From a virus: a stretch of 40,716 bases of DNA. Each line of letters begins with the position of its first letter. The stretch's first letter is position 1. Position numbers and translations under genes: made by a program. Below are positions 261-29,335 of the stretch, in pieces. Where the stretch lies: the UHGV virus genome UHGV-0322864; one strand, 5' to 3'. The notes under the pieces were generated by a model that worked only from the letters and a program-made list of their open reading frames with translations, made no database searches and was not told the DNA's origin.

Positions 261-308
261 ATAAATAAAAATGTCCTACCCCCTATATACATTATAGAAG
301 GCAGGACT
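261..308 (-). terminator. terminator-like hairpin plus U-tract after the 549-aa gene
   Basis: Minus-strand stem GTCCTGCC/GGTAGGAC (one mismatch) followed by AUUUUUAUUUAU. Confidence 0.4.
285..293 (-). promoter_or_regulatory. TAATGTATA motif (candidate phage middle/late promoter element)
   Basis: Exact 9-mer on the minus strand ~38 nt upstream of the ATG at 247, inside the loop of a terminator-like hairpin. Confidence 0.4.
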
Positions 309-17796: not shown

Positions 17797-17805
17797 TATA
17801 CATTA
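17797..17805 (-). promoter_or_regulatory. TAATGTATA motif (candidate phage middle/late promoter element)
   Basis: Exact 9-mer on the minus strand ~33 nt upstream of the ATG at 17763, just downstream of a terminator. Confidence 0.4.
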
Positions 17806-23660: not shown

Positions 23661-25202
23661 TTAGTAGCTCTGATTCCATCTGCTTACGTTTGCCTCATAC
23701 AAAGAAGCGCTTCCGAAGCTAACATCATGCTTAGAGCGACCACGATGTGTAACAGAGCACGCTGAATAGCGCATTGCATCCATTAAGTCATCATGTTCTT
23801 TAATAATCTTACCAACCTTACGGTGATATCTAGCTTTCTCTTCGAATAGCTTAGCGTTAGCGGCTGTGTTAAAGACTTTAAAGCGTCCACTCATCATTCT
23901 TTCTCGGATATCTGTGATTCCCGGTTCTACAAAGAAGTTCTTTTTACCATCCATTCCAATTTTGTTGTAGAAGGTCTCACTCTGTACGTTAACTCCTGCA
24001 TTCTTATAGAATTGAGCAACAGATGAACCACTACCTTTCTCAATATTGTCCGCATCGTGCGGTAGGATGACAGGAATCCACTGACCACGACCATTAATAG
24101 CTGGAGCATGATACACTGGAGTAAAGCCACCTTCTTTATATGAGTCGTAAACATAGATAGTATCCGTGTTTGCGTCATAAGCTGTCCAAACAGCAGCAGT
24201 TGGGTGATCAATACCAATATCAATTGCACAGACACGTTTCCACGTATCAGGGATTTCGAATGGTTCACATTTAATTGTGTCATCCGATACATCATAAATC
24301 AAACCACTTCCTAACAATGGCATACCTTTCGAACGCATCTCTAACTGCCACGCTGGAATACCTTCAGTCATATCTTTTATATCTTGGTCAGTGATGTGTC
24401 CACCTAGGTCTGCATGAGCATCCCACCAAGAAGCATTCTGGAAATATAGAGAACCTGTGTTCTCATCTCCTTCACCTTTCATAAATTTATCTACCAGTTC
24501 AGTTAAACCGTTCTCTGGTGTAGCTGTAATTGTAACTAGACCTTTAGTTGTGAGTGTACGTGTGACGCACTGTGCGAATATAGCCATAGACTCATATGGA
24601 TCTTCTTCGTCTAACCAAATGTAGTCAACTGTTGCACCCATCAATGTGTGTTCACCCTGTTGGGTTGAACGAAATTCTAATGTACTTAAACCGTCAAACT
24701 CTCCTCTTTCATTTTGATGTTTGATTTGTACGATTTGAAGTTTGTTACCATCTCGTTCTATCGTATCAATGACGATAGCATCACGAGGAATGACACCTGT
24801 CCCTAATAAGTTTGTATCCTTTCCGATAGGTGTACCAAACAACTCCTTTTGCAATACCTTCCTTGTGGAATCCCCTGTAATACCAACTGCCCATGCTAAG
24901 ATAGGTCTTTTAAATTTATATCCTGTCCACCAAGTTGGGTAGCGACCTGTGACATGACAAGCAAACTCGTATGCCTCGCTATAAGATTTACCAACACGGT
25001 TCGCTGCACACAAGAACCTAAAGCGATGCTTCAATCCTGCTGCATAAAATTTCTTTTGGAAGTCATACGCCTTGAAAGACAAAATCCTATTATACTTCCT
25101 CCATTGGTCACGCTCTTTCAACATATTCAATAGTGCTTTCTTCTCGTCTACACTAAGGTTGTTACCAGTTAGAGCTTCATAAATTTGTTTATCTAATGAC
25201 AT
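23661..25202 (-). CDS. terminase large subunit
   Basis: Walker A LCAANRVGKS, Walker B VDYIWLDEE, RNase-H-like nuclease motifs CAIDIGIDHPTAAVW and DDLMDAMRY; 513 aa. Confidence 0.9.
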   Translation of the reverse strand: MSLDKQIYEALTGNNLSVDEKKALLNMLKERDQWRKYNRILSFKAYDFQKKFYAAGLKHRFRFLCAANRVGKSYSEAYEFACHVTGRYPTWWTGYKFKRPILAWAVGITGDSTRKVLQKELFGTPIGKDTNLLGTGVIPRDAIVIDTIERDGNKLQIVQIKHQNERGEFDGLSTLEFRSTQQGEHTLMGATVDYIWLDEEDPYESMAIFAQCVTRTLTTKGLVTITATPENGLTELVDKFMKGEGDENTGSLYFQNASWWDAHADLGGHITDQDIKDMTEGIPAWQLEMRSKGMPLLGSGLIYDVSDDTIKCEPFEIPDTWKRVCAIDIGIDHPTAAVWTAYDANTDTIYVYDSYKEGGFTPVYHAPAINGRGQWIPVILPHDADNIEKGSGSSVAQFYKNAGVNVQSETFYNKIGMDGKKNFFVEPGITDIRERMMSGRFKVFNTAANAKLFEEKARYHRKVGKIIKEHDDLMDAMRYSACSVTHRGRSKHDVSFGSASLYEANVSRWNQSY

Positions 25203-25271: not shown

Positions 25272-25745
25272 TTAACTCTCGTCCGCTTCCTCCCCCTTTT
25301 CAGCGTCCTCAGAGTTGTCTTCTTCTGGAGGCATAACATCGATACCAAGTGCTCCAGTCAAGAAGTCCTTGATTTGTGCATTCAATGATTCTTCGTTGAT
25401 TACATTCTCTTCCTCAATCTTAACTTCAACAGAGGCCGCCTTAGGATATACCAGATCTGCAACTTTTGATGCAGCCTTGAATCTAAGATCAGGTGGAATA
25501 TTAGGATCTTCGTAAATTTGAATTAACACTTCATCAGGAGACAAATGACTTGCAGCAACACGGTCCAACATTAATTGTGTCAGTTTACCTCTACTACCTC
25601 TGGGTCGTCCGAATTTATTTCCCTTTTGAAACTTCCCATTGCTTGGGTTCATACCACGGCCTTCAAGTTCTTCCGTTACTCCGGGTAATCTTCCTGTAAT
25701 CTCAGCTACCTGTGCAGGCGTGAGTTCTCCGTTTTCTCCAAACAT
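25272..25745 (-). CDS. putative terminase small subunit
   Basis: 157-aa ORF immediately upstream of TerL; basic N-terminal motif KGNKFGRPRGSRGK and acidic C-terminus. Confidence 0.5.
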   Translation of the reverse strand: MFGENGELTPAQVAEITGRLPGVTEELEGRGMNPSNGKFQKGNKFGRPRGSRGKLTQLMLDRVAASHLSPDEVLIQIYEDPNIPPDLRFKAASKVADLVYPKAASVEVKIEEENVINEESLNAQIKDFLTGALGIDVMPPEEDNSEDAEKGEEADES

Positions 25746-25774
25746 TTTATACTCCTTCTACATTATCAACAACA

Positions 25775-25801: not shown

Positions 25802-26437
25802 TTACTTACAATCACCAACGGACAGGTTAAACATCTTACCTAGAGCAATCGTCTCACCTTCCCACGGAAGTTCTGCACCCTTCTCTTCCTCTAAAAGAAT
25901 AGAGCCGTCGACCAAAAATTTTTCGTAGTCTCGCAGTGCGTCGTCTACTAGCTCACTCTTGTGAATCCACGTAATTGTTTCTGTACCATCCTCTTCGATT
26001 CGAACATCACGATGCCATTCATCTTTGGAGGTAATGTAATCATGGAGCATTTCATATTCAGCTTCTTCAATCATCTCAATCATTACACGAGCATAGTCAG
26101 GGAGGTGATCATGTTTGGTAGATTCATATTCAACTACTTCCAGAGTAGATGGTTGTGTTTTAGTTTTAGAATCAGGGCGAGTAGTATGAATCAAATCTAA
26201 CATGTTTTTGTTCTCCGTAATAGTTGGTTTAAGAATACTTCCACTATATAAATCTTGTACAGCTAGTCCTGAAATATTTCCCATAGTTTCTAAATGTTGC
26301 AAGCTACAACCAGAACGGCATAGCTGTGAATTATAATCGTTAAGGTCCATTGCTTTAATGTGGAAAGGAGAACCAGAAGGGAAACTACCTCCATCTCCAT
26401 AAACACCTTCCATGTTACGTGCGATTAAACTATTCAT
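25802..26437 (-). CDS. hypothetical protein (211 aa)
   Basis: ORF at the head of the late operon; no recognisable motif. Confidence 0.5.
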   Translation of the reverse strand: MNSLIARNMEGVYGDGGSFPSGSPFHIKAMDLNDYNSQLCRSGCSLQHLETMGNISGLAVQDLYSGSILKPTITENKNMLDLIHTTRPDSKTKTQPSTLEVVEYESTKHDHLPDYARVMIEMIEEAEYEMLHDYITSKDEWHRDVRIEEDGTETITWIHKSELVDDALRDYEKFLVDGSILLEEEKGAELPWEGETIALGKMFNLSVGDCK

Positions 26438-26684
26438 CTGTCTCTCCCTTACTGTAATCTTTATACGTTTCTACTTTGTAAGTGCGGAATGCTCTGAAGA
26501 AGAGCCAACCTAAGCTACTCACATCAATTGTAATATCGAAATCTGTTTCATCATCTAAATCAACAAGACGACCTAAGCATGTAGCTTCCATCCCTTCTTC
26601 AGAGTCACTATTGATTACGAAAGCGTATGTCTCTGTTCTAAACCGAGGCACCATCTCTGATAAAAAGTCTAATACTAAATTCAT
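26430..26684 (-). CDS. hypothetical protein (84 aa), first gene of the minus-strand operon
   Basis: ORF overlapping the next gene by 8 nt; SD GAGGAG upstream of ATG. Confidence 0.45.
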   Translation of the reverse strand: MNLVLDFLSEMVPRFRTETYAFVINSDSEEGMEATCLGRLVDLDDETDFDITIDVSSLGWLFFRAFRTYKVETYKDYSKGETDE

Positions 26685-27149
26685 AATTCTTCTCCTCTGA
26701 ATAAGAGTATAAAGGGCACATCATAAGACCTACCCGTAAAGGCCACCTCATACCAACAACCCGTGTACGCTGATAAAGGGAAGAGGTTTAAAGGGGACTT
26801 CATGTTAAGGCACCTTCATAAAGACCATGTCACGTTAAGGCCTATCCATCCATGTGCTGTGTTTAAGCTTACCACATTTACTACATCTCCAAGTGGACTT
26901 ATAAAGGGTGTGAACTCTTTCATCCCCGTAAGCTTTGCGTATCCGATAGTACTCATGATCACATTTGAATTGCTTAATGATTAACTTAATTTTCCACATA
27001 AGTTCTCTTTCAACCTTATATATAAGAGTTTAAAATTCTGATTTGACCGAGTGTGCCTAGCCGCTTCCCGCGCGTTTCCTAAAAAGGGGGAGTCCTCATT
27101 TAAAAAAGGGTTATTGGCAATGCCTTTACACCTCTCCCCAACGTTCCAA

Positions 27150-27650
27150 CCTTCCCCGTGCCTACTCCCCGTTATTCTTTCCCCGTGTATACTACCCAAT
27201 ACATTACCTACCCGTTTATTTAGTTCCCCTTTAAAGAGTGAGAGAAAGGCTAGACTCTGATAAGGCGTAGTCATAGTGACAATAAGAGAGCTAATAATAC
27301 CCATAAGTAATAGCCCACATCCCCCATAGTTTGATTGTAAATAGTTTCAATAGTAATGATTATGAGTGCAATAATGATGTATGTATTAATTAAGTGGAAA
27401 GATTATGTTTGATGTTTATTATTCTTTTAAGAATGATTGTTTTTATTTCTTTTAATACTTTCTTTTTCAGCGTACATGAGCGTAGCGAATGGTCTTTGAT
27501 GTTTGAGTTATACAATTATTTAAGTGGTATATTACTACCGCACTATCTGGCAGTGTTTCCCCGTGGTCTGTCCTGCGGTTGTGTGTTCCCCGTTTGTCCT
27601 GGTCTGTTGGTCTGCTACCCGTAGCGCCAGCGTAACACCCGTAGCGATAG
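27150..27650. repeat. clusters of short direct repeats in the divergent intergenic region
   Basis: Three TCCCCGT copies at 27152-27186; TTCCCCGT(G/T)...GTCCTG twice at 27557-27606; ACCCGTAGCG twice at 27617-27647. Confidence 0.5.
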
Positions 27651-27700
27651 TGTTATAAAGTAACAATAGCTAGTAAGCTGATTCTCTGAGTATGGAAAGT

Positions 27701-27722
27701 TTAACAAATTAAATTCCTTTAG
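27701..27722 (+). repeat. copy 1 of 22-nt motif TTAACAAATTAAATTCCTTTAG
   Basis: About 40 nt upstream of the early promoter at 27760. Confidence 0.5.
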
Positions 27723-27759
27723 TTTTCAGTGAGTTATAGGAAAGTTAGAAAATAAATGT

Positions 27760-27788
27760 TTGACAGTCTTTTCCTTTATTATATAGTT
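27760..27788 (+). promoter_or_regulatory. sigma70-type promoter for the first early operon
   Basis: TTGACA - 16 nt - TATAGT; a second TTGACA lies 30 nt downstream (27790-27795) without a good -10. Confidence 0.6.
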
Positions 27789-27825
27789 GTTGACAGTTAA
27801 TTGAATCTATCTAAGGAATAACGAA

Positions 27826-28317
27826 ATGGCTAAAGCAATGCAGGTAGTTAATCTGGCAAGTTATGCACTGGTTGCAGCTATCGGGGTTAGTGCACTGGTA
27901 ACTACTCTTTCTGATAAGGCTGTTGCTAGTCCTGCTCCTGCAACTGATGCCGCTAGTGTTTTCGTTAGTTCCATCAATAAGGGTTGGATGATTTGCAACG
28001 GTGCGGATAGTGACGGCAATACCATTGTCTTAAAAATGAAGTTTAGCAACGTAACAAATGAAGGCGTTCTCTTTCAGTCTAAAACGCTAGACAATCAGCC
28101 TAACAATGATCTAGTTCTCAAGCGTACCGATAATGATGCGGATATGGTGACATATGGCACTGTACAACGTTATGAAGACGTTAAGGCTGTAACCAATCTA
28201 GTGAGTTATGGTCCGGTTAATGAATCGATGATCGCCACTACCGTTTATAATAACGCTGATAATGCTGTTTATACTGTTCACGTTAATTTAGCCAACTGCA
28301 TTAAGGCTAGTAAGTAA
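27826..28317 (+). CDS. early secreted or membrane-anchored protein
   Basis: 163 aa; N-terminal hydrophobic segment LASYALVAAIGVSALVTTLS; SD AAGGAA; consensus sigma70 promoter ~60 nt upstream. Confidence 0.6.
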   Translation: MAKAMQVVNLASYALVAAIGVSALVTTLSDKAVASPAPATDAASVFVSSINKGWMICNGADSDGNTIVLKMKFSNVTNEGVLFQSKTLDNQPNNDLVLKRTDNDADMVTYGTVQRYEDVKAVTNLVSYGPVNESMIATTVYNNADNAVYTVHVNLANCIKASK

Positions 28318-28342: not shown

Positions 28343-28594
28343 ATGGCTATCAAAGAAGTTAAGTTGTCTAATGGCTTTTCTTGTTTTGTTGGTGGGCAAT
28401 CTATCGAGTTTAATATGCGCGATGGTCAGATTATAGTTCCCGTTGTTGCTTTTTGTTCCATGAGCTTTAATGAGGCCAAAAAATGGCTTCAATTGGTGCG
28501 TATTGATATCAACCGCGATGATTTTCGATCAATCTATATTGACGGTGATTTGTCGCTTTCTGGCTTGCTTGAGATTGATTTACCTAAATGGTGA
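28343..28594 (+). CDS. hypothetical early protein (83 aa)
   Basis: ORF with SD AGGAG 8 nt before the ATG. Confidence 0.5.
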   Translation: MAIKEVKLSNGFSCFVGGQSIEFNMRDGQIIVPVVAFCSMSFNEAKKWLQLVRIDINRDDFRSIYIDGDLSLSGLLEIDLPKW

Positions 28595-28969: not shown

Positions 28970-29335
28970 ATGTGGTTTATTAAATTCATCGTTAAAATGG
29001 TTGTAGGCTTCTTTCTGGTCGTTCTTCTGTTAGGTGTCCTGTTATCGGCTATGGGTAGCGTTAAGGCTGCAACGTTTTCCCCTGCTACGGTTGACGGGTT
29101 GCAATGTACCTATCTCGTAGAGAATTACGAAACTGGTAAAAAGTCACCTAAAGTTATTATTTTGCATGTAAATGATTTCGATCATGTACAATCATACGAT
29201 AAAACTATTCAACTGGTAAACGAATCCAATGGTAAACAAATCACGGTCGATCACTTGATGCGCTCATCGTTGACGCTCTTTGATGAGTCCATGAATGAAA
29301 TGGCATCCGGTAACGGTCAATGTGTAAATCCATAG
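28970..29335 (+). CDS. membrane or secreted protein (121 aa)
   Basis: N-terminal TM/signal MWFIKFIVKMVVGFFLVVLLLGVLLSAMG; followed by an intrinsic terminator. Confidence 0.5.
   Translation: MWFIKFIVKMVVGFFLVVLLLGVLLSAMGSVKAATFSPATVDGLQCTYLVENYETGKKSPKVIILHVNDFDHVQSYDKTIQLVNESNGKQITVDHLMRSSLTLFDESMNEMASGNGQCVNP

What the first reader, a model, noticed from the sequence alone, without database searches (positions are those of the whole stretch)
26685..27825. Divergent 1.1-kb non-coding region with pyrimidine-rich direct repeats
Seen in sequence: between the divergent late and early blocks there is no convincing gene (track ORFs here are low-complexity and lack SDs). The region holds three TCCCCGT copies within 35 nt (27152-27186), two copies of TTCCCCGT(G/T)...GTCCTG (27557-27606), two copies of ACCCGTAGCG 20 nt apart (27617-27647), repeated GTTAAGGC (~26803, ~26831) and an AT-rich block at 27300-27480. 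Inference: candidate origin of replication, packaging or terminal-repeat region, or regulatory hub for both operons.
Basis: partly seen in the sequence, partly recalled or inferred. Interest (0 to 1): 0.5.

Follow-up and report, generated by a model that had tools for sequence, protein, structure and literature searches.

The report
Phage genome ends joined by assembly
This stretch is where the two physical ends of a phiEco32-like coliphage genome were joined by assembly: a known 193-bp terminal repeat, flanked by an early promoter, one small overlooked gene and a same-direction array of short CCCGT repeats resembling those at the ends of phage T7.

Summary
The window is a Kuravirus (phiEco32-like) coliphage. 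They are copies of one motif, (T/A)CCCGT: 11 copies in 26733-27642, all on the + strand, against 0.43 expected.

Window 27059-27251 is the homolog of the 193-bp direct terminal repeat (DTR) determined for phiEco32, SU10, Paul and YF01. It aligns to positions 1-193 of those linear records. So the "intergenic region" is the genome-end junction, with the DTR collapsed to one copy by assembly.

- **Motif layout:** four copies lie inside the DTR, four to its right and three to its left. Positions and orientation are kept in 15 relatives. A more divergent lineage uses CCCAT in the same layout.
- **T7 parallel:** T7's junction shows the same architecture with CCTAAAG.
- **Other features:** a conserved sigma-70 early promoter sits at 27760-27787. 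A conserved 54-aa Cys/His gene sits at 26835-26999 (-), so the region is not gene-free.
- **AT-rich stretch:** conserved blocks at 27335-27556 remain unexplained.

The terminal-repeat reading is supported by homology. A packaging or maturation role for the array is inferred. A replication origin is untested. The DTR is known biology; the oriented array is a modest descriptive addition.

The parts
26685..26834 (+). Left-end short-repeat spacer between gene 1 and the phi32_4 homolog. It holds ACCCGT at 26732-26737 and 26759-26764, TAAAGG(G) at 26710, 26737, 26774 and 26789, GTTAAGGC at 26804 and 26834, and a 27-bp tandem unit at 26710-26764.
   Evidence: The sequence varies in length among relatives, but CCC(G/A)T and TAAAGG/TTAAGG units recur in all of them, including Bas88 and TH34.
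26835..26999 (-). Gene 1, a 54-aa protein (MWKIKLIIKQFKCDHEYY...WRCSKCGKLKHSTWMDRP) with a CxH...CxxC motif. It is the first gene inside the left genome end. One TCCCCGT copy (26923-26929) lies within its conserved YGDE codons.
   Evidence: The ORF is open in all 15 relatives, while the frame annotated as phi32_1 has stops in divergent relatives. Variable columns by codon position are 20/17/36. It matches phrog_7696 at E=6e-17. The SU10 CDS1 start context matches.
27000..27058 (-). Nearly invariant upstream region of gene 1, abutting the terminal repeat. It holds a weak Shine-Dalgarno (GAAAGAG) and a candidate weak sigma-70 promoter (GTCAAA-17-TATATA read on the - strand).
   Evidence: Conservation profile. 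The SU10 authors list the homologous sequence as a potential sigma-70 promoter upstream of CDS1. It falls below the threshold of the promoter scan.
27059..27251 (-). Homolog of the Kuravirus 193-bp direct terminal repeat, present once because the assembly collapsed the two copies. Both boundaries carry a conserved G(G/C)CT|AG.
   Evidence: 89% identity over the full 193 bp of the exact phiEco32 repeat. It aligns to record positions 1-193 of YF01, Paul, SU10, phiEco32 and CHD5UKE1. Boundaries are conserved in 15 relatives, and conservation collapses just outside 27251. Literature.
27153..27215 (+). Array inside the repeat: TCCCCGT x3 (27153, 27166, 27180) plus TACCCGT (27209). Start-to-start spacing is 13, 14 and 29 bp.
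   Evidence: The offsets (+96, +109, +123, +152 from the repeat boundary) are the same to within 1-2 bp in all 15 relatives. 4E8 has five copies in its 206-bp repeat.
27080..27110 (-). Internal repeat CCCTTTTTTA - 10 nt - CCCCCTTTTTA, in the most conserved part of the terminal repeat.
   Evidence: Read directly. The same element was described in SU10, where the T-run length varied between reads. The YF01 paper notes a highly conserved stretch at repeat positions ~130-170.
27252..27334 (.). Poorly conserved spacer just outside the right-end copy of the repeat.
   Evidence: Conservation falls to 0-30% immediately after 27251, with indels.
27335..27556 (+). AT-rich stretch (75% AT to 27535) with three nearly invariant blocks: A at 27321-27397, B (TTTTTCAGCGT) at 27462-27472, and C at 27513-27556. 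These bracket a hypervariable T-rich spacer at 27400-27455. The direct repeat ATTA(A/T)TTAAGTGG occurs at 27385 and 27515. Block C holds a candidate extended -10 promoter (TG at 27525-27526, TATATT at 27528-27533).
   Evidence: The function was not established. The promoter call comes from reading the sequence only and is not kept in Bas88.
27557..27646 (+). Right-end array: TTCCCCGT at 27557 and 27586, ACCCGTAGCG at 27617 and 27637. Spacing is 29, 29 and 20 bp. The fourth copy is a 20-bp duplication shared only with SGF2.
   Evidence: Among the CCCGT-type relatives, 12 of 15 have three or four copies 27-30 bp apart at this position; Bas94 has two and Bas92 one. 4E8 has four copies spaced 15-30 bp; Bas88 has five and TH34 four here, as mixed CCCGT/CCCAT copies spaced 13-30 bp.
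27760..27787 (+). Sigma-70 early promoter (TTGACA-16-TATAGT) for the rightward early operon. It is followed by SD AAGGA (27813-27817) and the ATG at 27826.
   Evidence: 11 of 12 consensus positions. It is homologous to the SU10 early promoter upstream of CDS125 and to the promoter annotated in 4E8.

Best explanation
The region is the junction of the two physical ends of a phiEco32-like (Kuravirus) podophage genome, closed into one stretch by assembly.

**What the parts are**
- Window 27059-27251 is the 193-bp direct terminal repeat (DTR). In the virion it would sit at both ends of the linear DNA.
- To its left lies the left-end unique sequence. It holds a candidate promoter, the 54-aa gene 1 and a short-repeat spacer.
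- To its right lies the right-end unique sequence. It holds conserved AT-rich blocks, a second short-repeat array and the sigma-70 early promoter that launches the rightward early operon.

**Proposed mechanism (inferred, not shown)**
- As in T7, replication yields head-to-tail concatemers joined through one copy of the repeat.
- The maturation and packaging machinery finds this junction through the oriented array. The candidate small terminase is the phi32_6 homolog at 25272-25745 (-), working with the large terminase at 23661-25202 (-).
- Cutting occurs at the conserved G(G/C)CT|AG on each side of the repeat, and the repeat is duplicated by repair synthesis.

How sure: about 0.9 that this is the DTR junction, and about 0.4-0.45 that the array serves packaging or maturation.
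For: **Identity**
- The region matches about 96 Kuravirus records.
- The exact 193-bp repeat of phiEco32 maps to 27059-27251 at 89% identity.
- That interval aligns to positions 1-193 of YF01 and Paul, both annotated as DTR, and of SU10, phiEco32 and CHD5UKE1. Matches to the whole region stop exactly at those two window positions in the linear records.
- Termini were determined experimentally in phiEco32, SU10, Paul and YF01.
- G(G/C)CT|AG is conserved at both boundaries in 15 relatives, and conservation drops sharply outside 27251.

**Array**
- There are 11 CCCGT copies on one strand against 0.43 expected.
- The four DTR copies sit at the same offsets, within 1-2 bp, in all 15 relatives. Flank arrays recur at matching positions (12 of 15 have three or four right-flank copies), and no copy lies on the other strand. 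One IMG/VR contig shows the same pattern.
- Bas88 and TH34 keep the layout with CCCAT. 4E8, whose 206-bp repeat I verified as exact, has five copies in the repeat and four on the right.
- T7's junction has 13 CCTAAAG copies in one orientation: 2 before, 3 inside and 8 after its 160-bp repeat.

**Promoter**
-.
Against: - No reads are available, so the termini of this particular phage are inferred by homology only.
- Some linear records had their ends set by homology rather than by experiment, for example WFI101126.
- Nothing shows which protein binds the motif.
  - The candidate small terminase is 91-98% identical across phages that use CCCGT and CCCAT. Its few N-terminal differences do not track the motif.
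  - Its identity as a small terminase rests on an HHpred statement in the literature. Sequence searches here gave only a faint DUF5681 hint.
- One motif copy (26923-26929) lies in conserved codons and may be there for coding reasons.
- Two other short-repeat or related phages have no comparable single-motif array: LUZ24 and 7-11. The architecture is therefore not general.
- The role of T7's own arrays has, to my knowledge, never been established. The analogy therefore transfers a pattern, not a proven function.
Confidence: 0.85

Rival explanations
1. The arrays are iterons of a replication origin. An initiator would bind the CCC(G/A)T copies on either side of the AT-rich stretch (27335-27535) and melt it to start replication near the genome end.
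For: - The 75% AT stretch lies between the DTR array (27153-27215) and the right array (27557-27646).
- It contains nearly invariant blocks and a conserved direct repeat, ATTA(A/T)TTAAGTGG, 130 bp apart.
- The cumulative GC skew has its minimum here.
- From my own knowledge, T7 has secondary origins near both ends (phiOL and phiOR). One search lists phiOL and phiOR as promoters at those positions.
Against: - The conserved core is only 5-8 bp with irregular spacing (13-29 bp), whereas classical iterons are 17-22 bp.
- Copies extend over 900 bp, into the left-end spacer and into gene 1.
- No initiator-like gene lies nearby.
- The GC-skew minimum coincides with the switch in transcription direction, so it says nothing specific.
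- The most AT-rich part (27400-27455) is hypervariable, with indels.
Confidence: 0.15
2. The repeats are operator-like sites for a transcription regulator, phage or host. It would control the end-proximal early promoters, for example early shut-off or the timing of gene 1 and the rightward operon.
For: - The right array lies 115-230 bp upstream of the sigma-70 promoter at 27760-27787. It lies just downstream of a candidate extended -10 promoter at 27525-27533.
- Gene 1 encodes a small Cys/His protein that could bind DNA.
- phiEco32 is known to shut off sigma-70 transcription.
Against: - Known shut-off in phiEco32 works through gp79 binding RNA polymerase, not through operators.
- Most copies are far from any promoter. 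Four lie inside the terminal repeat.
- The gene 1 protein type does not track the motif variant. The window type and the NJ01 type both go with CCCGT.
Confidence: 0.1
3. The repeats have no function of their own. They would be leftovers of local tandem duplication and slippage in a non-coding, compositionally skewed region.
For: - A 27-bp tandem unit is detectable at 26710-26764.
- The fourth right-hand copy is a recent 20-bp duplication shared only with SGF2.
- The left spacer varies in length among relatives.
Against: - The motif core, strand and positions are kept across lineages whose flanks have diverged to about 70-75% identity.
- There are no copies at all on the opposite strand in 17 phages.
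- The motif persists while the sequence between copies changes.
Confidence: 0.1

Closest known systems
Direct terminal repeat of phiEco32-like phages (Kuravirus: phiEco32, SU10, Paul, YF01)
   Same: It is homologous over the full 193 bp, with the same boundaries. It sits in the same place, between the right-end early operon and left-end gene 1. It carries the same internal CCCTTTTTTA-type repeat.
   Different: This phage's repeat is only 88-97% identical to the published ones. Its own termini were not measured. The oriented CCC(G/A)T array in and around the repeat is not mentioned in any of the papers I could read. The two original phiEco32 papers were not available.
Phage T7 concatemer junction: 160-bp terminal repeat with flanking arrays of CCTAAAG short repeats
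   Same: - Both have a short exact terminal repeat.
- In both, one short motif in a single orientation is spread over the repeat and both flanks. T7 has 2 + 3 + 8 copies. The window has 4 (right-end unique) + 4 (repeat) + 3 (left-end unique).
- Both have host-polymerase early promoters close to one end.
- TAAAG-containing units also recur in the Kuravirus left spacer.
   Different: - There is no sequence homology and the motif differs.
- According to the SU10 paper, Kuraviruses lack a phage RNA polymerase, so T7's polymerase-linked maturation cannot apply.
- T7's largest array is at the early-promoter (left) end. The Kuravirus flank arrays are about equal in size (4 at the early-promoter right end, 3 at the left end).
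- The function of the T7 arrays is itself not established, to my knowledge.
Small-terminase recognition repeats at lambda cosB (R1-R3) and SPP1 pacL/pacR
   Same: Both have several short repeated elements next to the terminase cutting site, and a small terminase gene lies nearby (background; the rest is from my own knowledge).
   Different: Binding was not tested here. No IHF site was found. Those phages make cohesive or headful ends, not short direct terminal repeats.
Iteron-type replication origins (lambda ori, iteron plasmids)
   Same: Direct repeats lie next to an AT-rich stretch.
   Different: The core is much shorter, the spacing is irregular, no adjacent initiator gene was found, and the copies are spread over 900 bp, including inside the terminal repeat.

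Membership tests
Kuravirus 192-193-bp direct terminal repeat | Full-length sequence homology to an experimentally determined repeat | tested here: met
   89% identity over 193/193 bp to phiEco32; 88-97% to about 60 records.
Kuravirus 192-193-bp direct terminal repeat | Boundaries coincide with mapped genome ends | tested here: met
   Window 27059 and 27251 align with record positions 193 and 1 of YF01, Paul, SU10 and phiEco32. G(G/C)CT|AG is conserved at both boundaries.
Kuravirus 192-193-bp direct terminal repeat | The sequence is present at both ends of this phage's virion DNA | not testable with these tools
   No reads or virion DNA are available. The window holds one copy, as expected for a collapsed assembly.
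Kuravirus 192-193-bp direct terminal repeat | Position between the right-end early operon and the left-end genes upstream of terminase | tested here: met
   Synteny with phiEco32, MN03, SGF2, Bas91 and 4E8.
T7-type concatemer junction with short-repeat arrays | One short motif, in one orientation, inside the repeat and in both flanks | tested here: met
   Window: 11 CCCGT copies on one strand only. T7: 13 CCTAAAG copies on one strand only.
T7-type concatemer junction with short-repeat arrays | Sequence homology to T7-group junctions | tested here: not met
   All matches to the region or the repeat in the phage collection are Escherichia or Shigella Kuravirus-like records. The motif is also different.
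T7-type concatemer junction with short-repeat arrays | Maturation coupled to a phage RNA polymerase and its promoter near the right end | not tested
   The literature states that phiEco32-like phages have no RNA polymerase of their own. I did not search the window for one.
Terminase small-subunit recognition site (cosB/pac-like) | Repeated elements adjacent to the cleavage sites | tested here: met
   The nearest copies lie about 40 bp inside the 27251 boundary and about 95 bp inside the 27059 boundary.
Terminase small-subunit recognition site (cosB/pac-like) | The motif co-varies with the DNA-binding part of the small terminase | tested here: inconclusive
   The candidate TerS is 91-98% identical across CCCGT-type and CCCAT-type phages, and its differences do not track the motif. 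Only two motif classes were available.
Terminase small-subunit recognition site (cosB/pac-like) | Specific binding by the small terminase | not testable with these tools
   This needs EMSA or footprinting. Even the TerS assignment rests on the literature and a faint DUF5681 hit.
Iteron-type replication origin | Regularly spaced direct repeats of about 17-22 bp | tested here: not met
   The conserved core is 5-8 bp and the spacing is 13, 14, 20, 27 or 29 bp.
Iteron-type replication origin | Adjacent AT-rich unwinding region | tested here: met
   27335-27535 is 75% AT, against 58% for the whole window.
Iteron-type replication origin | Cognate initiator gene nearby; replication starts here | tested here: inconclusive
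   No initiator family was found among eight neighbouring proteins. Initiation itself cannot be tested with these tools.
Sigma-70 early promoter of phiEco32-like phages | TTGACA / TATAAT-like hexamers with 16-18 bp spacing upstream of the first right-end gene, conserved in relatives | tested here: met
   TTGACA-16-TATAGT scores 11/12. It is homologous to the SU10 early promoter upstream of CDS125. No transcript mapping was done for this phage.

The most novel reading that the evidence does not exclude
The oriented CCC(G/A)T arrays, together with the conserved G(G/C)CT|AG at both repeat boundaries, could be the complete cis-acting signal by which a phage without its own RNA polymerase recognises and resolves a T7-style concatemer junction. 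The 13-14 bp sub-spacing (and multiples of 27-29 bp) would reflect DNA wrapped around a ring-shaped small terminase. If so, Kuraviruses would be a tractable model for how short direct terminal repeats are made without the T7 polymerase-dependent pathway.
Probability: 0.3. Interest if true: 0.5.

Novelty: new member of a known kind. Interest (0 to 1): 0.28.

Why it matters
**Practical consequences**
- The record this window comes from is circularly permuted. Its true ends should be set at 27251 (left end) and 27059 (right end), with the 193-bp repeat duplicated.
- ORFs called across that interval should be removed. Two GenBank relatives annotate such an ORF.
- Gene 1 should be called in the 54-aa frame.

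**Biological interest**
How short direct terminal repeats are recognised, cut and duplicated is understood only in outline, even for T7, and not at all for phages lacking a T7-type RNA polymerase. A conserved, oriented, co-varying motif array around the repeat gives a concrete, mutable candidate signal for transduction and packaging assays. It could also help in building packageable phagemids for this phage group.

Tried and rejected
1. **Rfam and tRNA scans of the window** found nothing.
2. **gp36 (phage sigma) promoters in the region.**
   - The only near match to TAATGTATA is at 27198-27206 (-), inside the repeat.
   - It is not conserved: phiEco32 has AATGAA there.
   - Mapped gp36 promoters lie upstream of genes 6, 13, 26, 40, 58 and 68. 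This reading was rejected.
3. **IHF site search** found none in the region.
4. **Hairpin at the repeat.** Single-stranded DNA folding of the repeat gives less structure than shuffled sequence (z = +1.9).
5. **Long-range inverted repeat 26764-26778 / 27462-27476**. The right arm is universal, but the left arm is present in only 10 of 16 phages. It is not treated as a feature.
6. **Covariation of the motif with the candidate small terminase or the gene 1 protein.** No correlation was found.
7. **Generality of the architecture.** Salmonella phage 7-11 (2.8-kb non-coding junction) and Pseudomonas phage LUZ24 (184-bp repeat) show no comparable single-motif oriented array.
9. **Sequence-only confirmation of the small terminase.** PDB, Pfam and NCBIfam gave no significant hit.
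10. **The original phiEco32 papers** (Savalia 2008, Pavlova 2012) are not held. Their content is cited only through later papers.
Full report
**What the window is**

The region and its flanks match about 96 records of phiEco32-like coliphages (genus Kuravirus, subfamily Gordonclarkvirinae) at 83-94% identity. Gene order is the same as in phiEco32, MN03, SGF2 and Bas91. On the - strand lie portal, large terminase (23661-25202), the phi32_6 homolog (25272-25745), the phi32_5 homolog (25802-26437) and the phi32_4 homolog (26430-26684). From 27826 onward, on the + strand, lies the early operon that starts with the phi32_128 family.

**The observation**

They are not independent. They share the core (T/A)CCCGT.

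- CCCGT occurs 40 times on both strands of the 40.7-kb window. Eleven of these lie within 26733-27642, all on the + strand.
- Against the rest of the window the expectation is 0.43, giving a Bonferroni-corrected p of about 1e-9. TCCCCGT is 6 observed against 0.02 expected.
- No other 1141-nt stretch has more than three copies on one strand.
- TAAAGGG is also enriched on the left side, at 4 against 0.06. A 27-bp tandem unit is detectable at 26710-26764.
- The AT-rich block is real but is best placed at 27335-27535, at 75% AT. Pyrimidine richness is confined to the terminal-repeat part.

**What it is**

- phiEco32 is a linear genome whose first and last 193 bp are identical, which I verified on the record.
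- That repeat aligns to window 27059-27251 on the - strand at 89% identity over its whole length, and it occurs only once in the window.
- Used as a query, this interval aligns to positions 1-193 of YF01 and Paul (annotated as direct terminal repeats), SU10, phiEco32 and CHD5UKE1.
- In a search with the whole region, the matches to linear records stop exactly at the window positions that correspond to 27059 and 27251.
- The termini of this group were determined by several methods:
  - restriction mapping, primer walking and sub-cloning in phiEco32;
  - read drop-off in SU10;
  - PhageTerm in Paul;
  - full-length nanopore reads in YF01.
- Some records, such as WFI101126, had their ends set by homology and are not independent.
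- In an alignment of 15 phages, both boundaries carry a conserved G(G/C)CT|AG, and conservation collapses immediately outside 27251.

The 1.1-kb "intergenic region" is therefore the junction of the two genome ends, with the repeat collapsed to one copy by assembly.

**Anatomy of the motif array**

- Four copies lie inside the repeat (27155, 27168, 27182, 27211). Four lie 306-390 bp to its right (27560, 27589, 27618, 27638). Three lie to its left (26733, 26760, 26925).
- In 14 relatives plus phiEco32, the four copies inside the repeat sit at the same offsets to within 1-2 bp. Twelve of the 15 have three or four copies 27-30 bp apart on the right (Bas94 has two, Bas92 one), one to five copies lie on the left, and none lies on the other strand. 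A further IMG/VR Kuravirus contig shows the same pattern.
- Phage 4E8 has a 206-bp repeat that is exact in its record. It carries five copies in the repeat and four on the right.
- The more divergent Bas88 and TH34 keep the same layout but mostly use CCCAT (10 and 9 ACCCAT copies on one strand only). The consensus is therefore CCC(G/A)T. The architecture is conserved while the sequence between copies is not.
- The fourth right-hand copy in the window is a 20-bp duplication shared only with SGF2.

**Other features in the region**

1. *A real gene.* The 54-aa ORF at 26835-26999 (-) has a CxH...CxxC motif.
   - It is open in all 15 relatives despite many substitutions, whereas the frame annotated as phi32_1 acquires stops.
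   - Variable alignment columns fall 20/17/36 by codon position.
   - It matches phrog_7696 at E=6e-17.
   - Its start context equals that of SU10 CDS1.
   - One motif copy (26923-26929) lies in its conserved YGDE codons.
2. *Upstream of gene 1.* An almost invariant 59 bp lies between that gene and the repeat. The SU10 authors list the homologous sequence as a possible sigma-70 promoter.
3. *Early promoter.* TTGACA-16-TATAGT at 27760-27787 scores 11 of 12 and is homologous to the SU10 early promoter upstream of CDS125.
4. *Conserved AT-rich blocks.* Three nearly invariant non-coding blocks (27321-27397, 27462-27472, 27513-27556) bracket a hypervariable T-rich spacer. They include a 13-bp direct repeat, ATTA(A/T)TTAAGTGG, and a candidate extended -10 promoter, TGGTATATT. 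Their role is unknown.
5. *A spurious ORF.* The 107-aa ORF across the repeat (26981-27304, -) is annotated as a CDS in EK5 and 1-6bf. It is not preserved in relatives and would be cut in two by the genome ends.

No gp36-type late promoter lies in the region. The mapped ones are upstream of genes 6, 13, 26, 40, 58 and 68. The gene 6 promoter corresponds to window 25757-25765.

**How it most likely works**

*Shown or strongly supported:* the repeat, its boundaries, the promoter homology, and the conservation and strand bias of the array.

*Inferred:* the group is thought to replicate like T7, through concatemers joined by one repeat copy. I verified that T7's own junction has the same architecture. 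It has 13 CCTAAAG copies, all in one orientation: two before, three inside and eight after the 160-bp repeat. By position, orientation and conservation, the Kuravirus array is best read as part of the cis-acting signal that lets the maturation and packaging machinery find and orient itself on the junction. Cuts would fall at the conserved CT|AG on each side.

The 13-14 bp sub-spacing and its multiples would suit DNA wrapped around a ring-shaped small terminase. That is speculation from general knowledge of such rings.

**Tests that did not help**

- The candidate small terminase (assigned in the YF01 paper by HHpred) is 91-98% identical across motif variants, and its differences do not track the motif.
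- Sequence searches did not confirm its family.
- No IHF site is present.
- The repeat is poor in secondary structure.

**Rivals**

- An iteron-type origin is suggested by the AT-rich stretch between two arrays. But the core is very short, the spacing is irregular, no initiator gene was found, and the GC-skew minimum merely coincides with the switch in transcription direction.
- Operator sites for a regulator are possible for the right-hand array only.
- Functionless duplication debris is hard to reconcile with conservation of core, strand and position across lineages whose flanks are about 70-75% identical.

**Comparison with known systems, and novelty**

- The repeat is a member of the known Kuravirus DTR family. 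Three of four defining features are met, and the fourth needs reads.
- The junction works like, but is not homologous to, the T7 concatemer junction. According to the literature these phages lack a phage RNA polymerase, so T7's polymerase-linked maturation cannot apply.
- The architecture is not universal. LUZ24 and 7-11 lack a comparable array.
- None of the papers I could read mention the oriented CCC(G/A)T array. SU10 describes only the CCCTTTTTTA pair, and YF01 a conserved stretch at positions ~130-170.

**Verdict**

The finding is real, and its terminal-repeat reading is right. The central element is already known for this genus. The added value is a clear description of a conserved, oriented motif array as a candidate maturation signal, plus some annotation corrections. 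Interest is modest.

Noticed in passing
window 26835-26999 (-); L004 296-744: The conserved 54-aa Cys/His gene is not the frame annotated in the phiEco32 RefSeq record. The phi32_1 frame (296-496) has stops in divergent relatives. phi32_2 and phi32_3 lie in the variable short-repeat spacer and are probably not genes.
   Followed up: partly
window 26981-27304 (-); L006 879-1202; L008 894-1193: An ORF spanning the whole terminal repeat is annotated as a hypothetical protein in EK5 and 1-6bf. It crosses both physical genome ends and is broken in other relatives, so it is almost certainly spurious.
   Followed up: yes
window 27057-27060 and 27250-27253: Both boundaries of the terminal repeat read G(G/C)CT|AG, with CTAG invariant in 15 relatives apart from single substitutions at the 27251 boundary in MN03 (CCAG) and Bas91 (CTAT). 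Most relatives have the 8-bp palindrome GGCTAGCC, or GGCTAGGC, at the left boundary. GGCTAG itself is not rare in the window (11 sites), so it cannot be the whole signal.
   Followed up: partly
L016 and L017 (Bas88, TH34), junction regions: A divergent Kuravirus-like lineage replaces most CCCGT copies by CCCAT (ACCCAT 10 and 9 times, on one strand only). It keeps the three-part layout. In its left spacer it often pairs the motif with AAAGGCC (ACCCATAAAGGC).
   Followed up: partly
window 27385-27397 and 27515-27527: A 13-bp direct repeat, ATTA(A/T)TTAAGTGG, lies 130 bp apart. Both copies are nearly invariant in 15 phages, and they bracket a hypervariable T-rich spacer with many indels. The second copy runs into a candidate extended -10 promoter (TGGTATATT).
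   Followed up: partly
window 26764-26778 and 27462-27476: A 15-nt inverted repeat (14/15 complementary) straddles the terminal repeat. The right arm (TTTTTCAGCGT) is present in all 16 phages examined, the left arm in only 10.
   Followed up: yes
window 25757-25765 (-), 286-294 (-), 17797-17805 (-): These are matches to the phage sigma (gp36) promoter motif TAATGTATA. The one at 25757 (TAATGTAGA) sits just upstream of the phi32_6 homolog, as in SU10 and phiEco32. The two perfect matches lie upstream of other late genes.
   Followed up: partly
window 25802-26437 (-), 28343-28594 (+), 28970-29335 (+): The names 'ABC transporter', 'polymerase' and 'terminase' carried by these small proteins in many GenBank relatives come from PHROG labels. 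Pfam finds no such domains (E > 0.001 for everything), so they look like propagated mis-annotations.
   Followed up: partly
window 27826-28317 (+): The first right-end gene (163 aa) corresponds to residues 129-290 of the 290-aa phi32_128 family (phrog_36409). Relatives carry either the long or the short form, and some have an extra small ORF between the right array and this gene.
   Followed up: no
L021/L022 (Salmonella phage 7-11 record ends): 7-11 has about 2.8 kb without annotated genes between gp151 and gp001 across its record ends. The record has no exact terminal repeat and no single dominant oriented short motif.
   Followed up: partly
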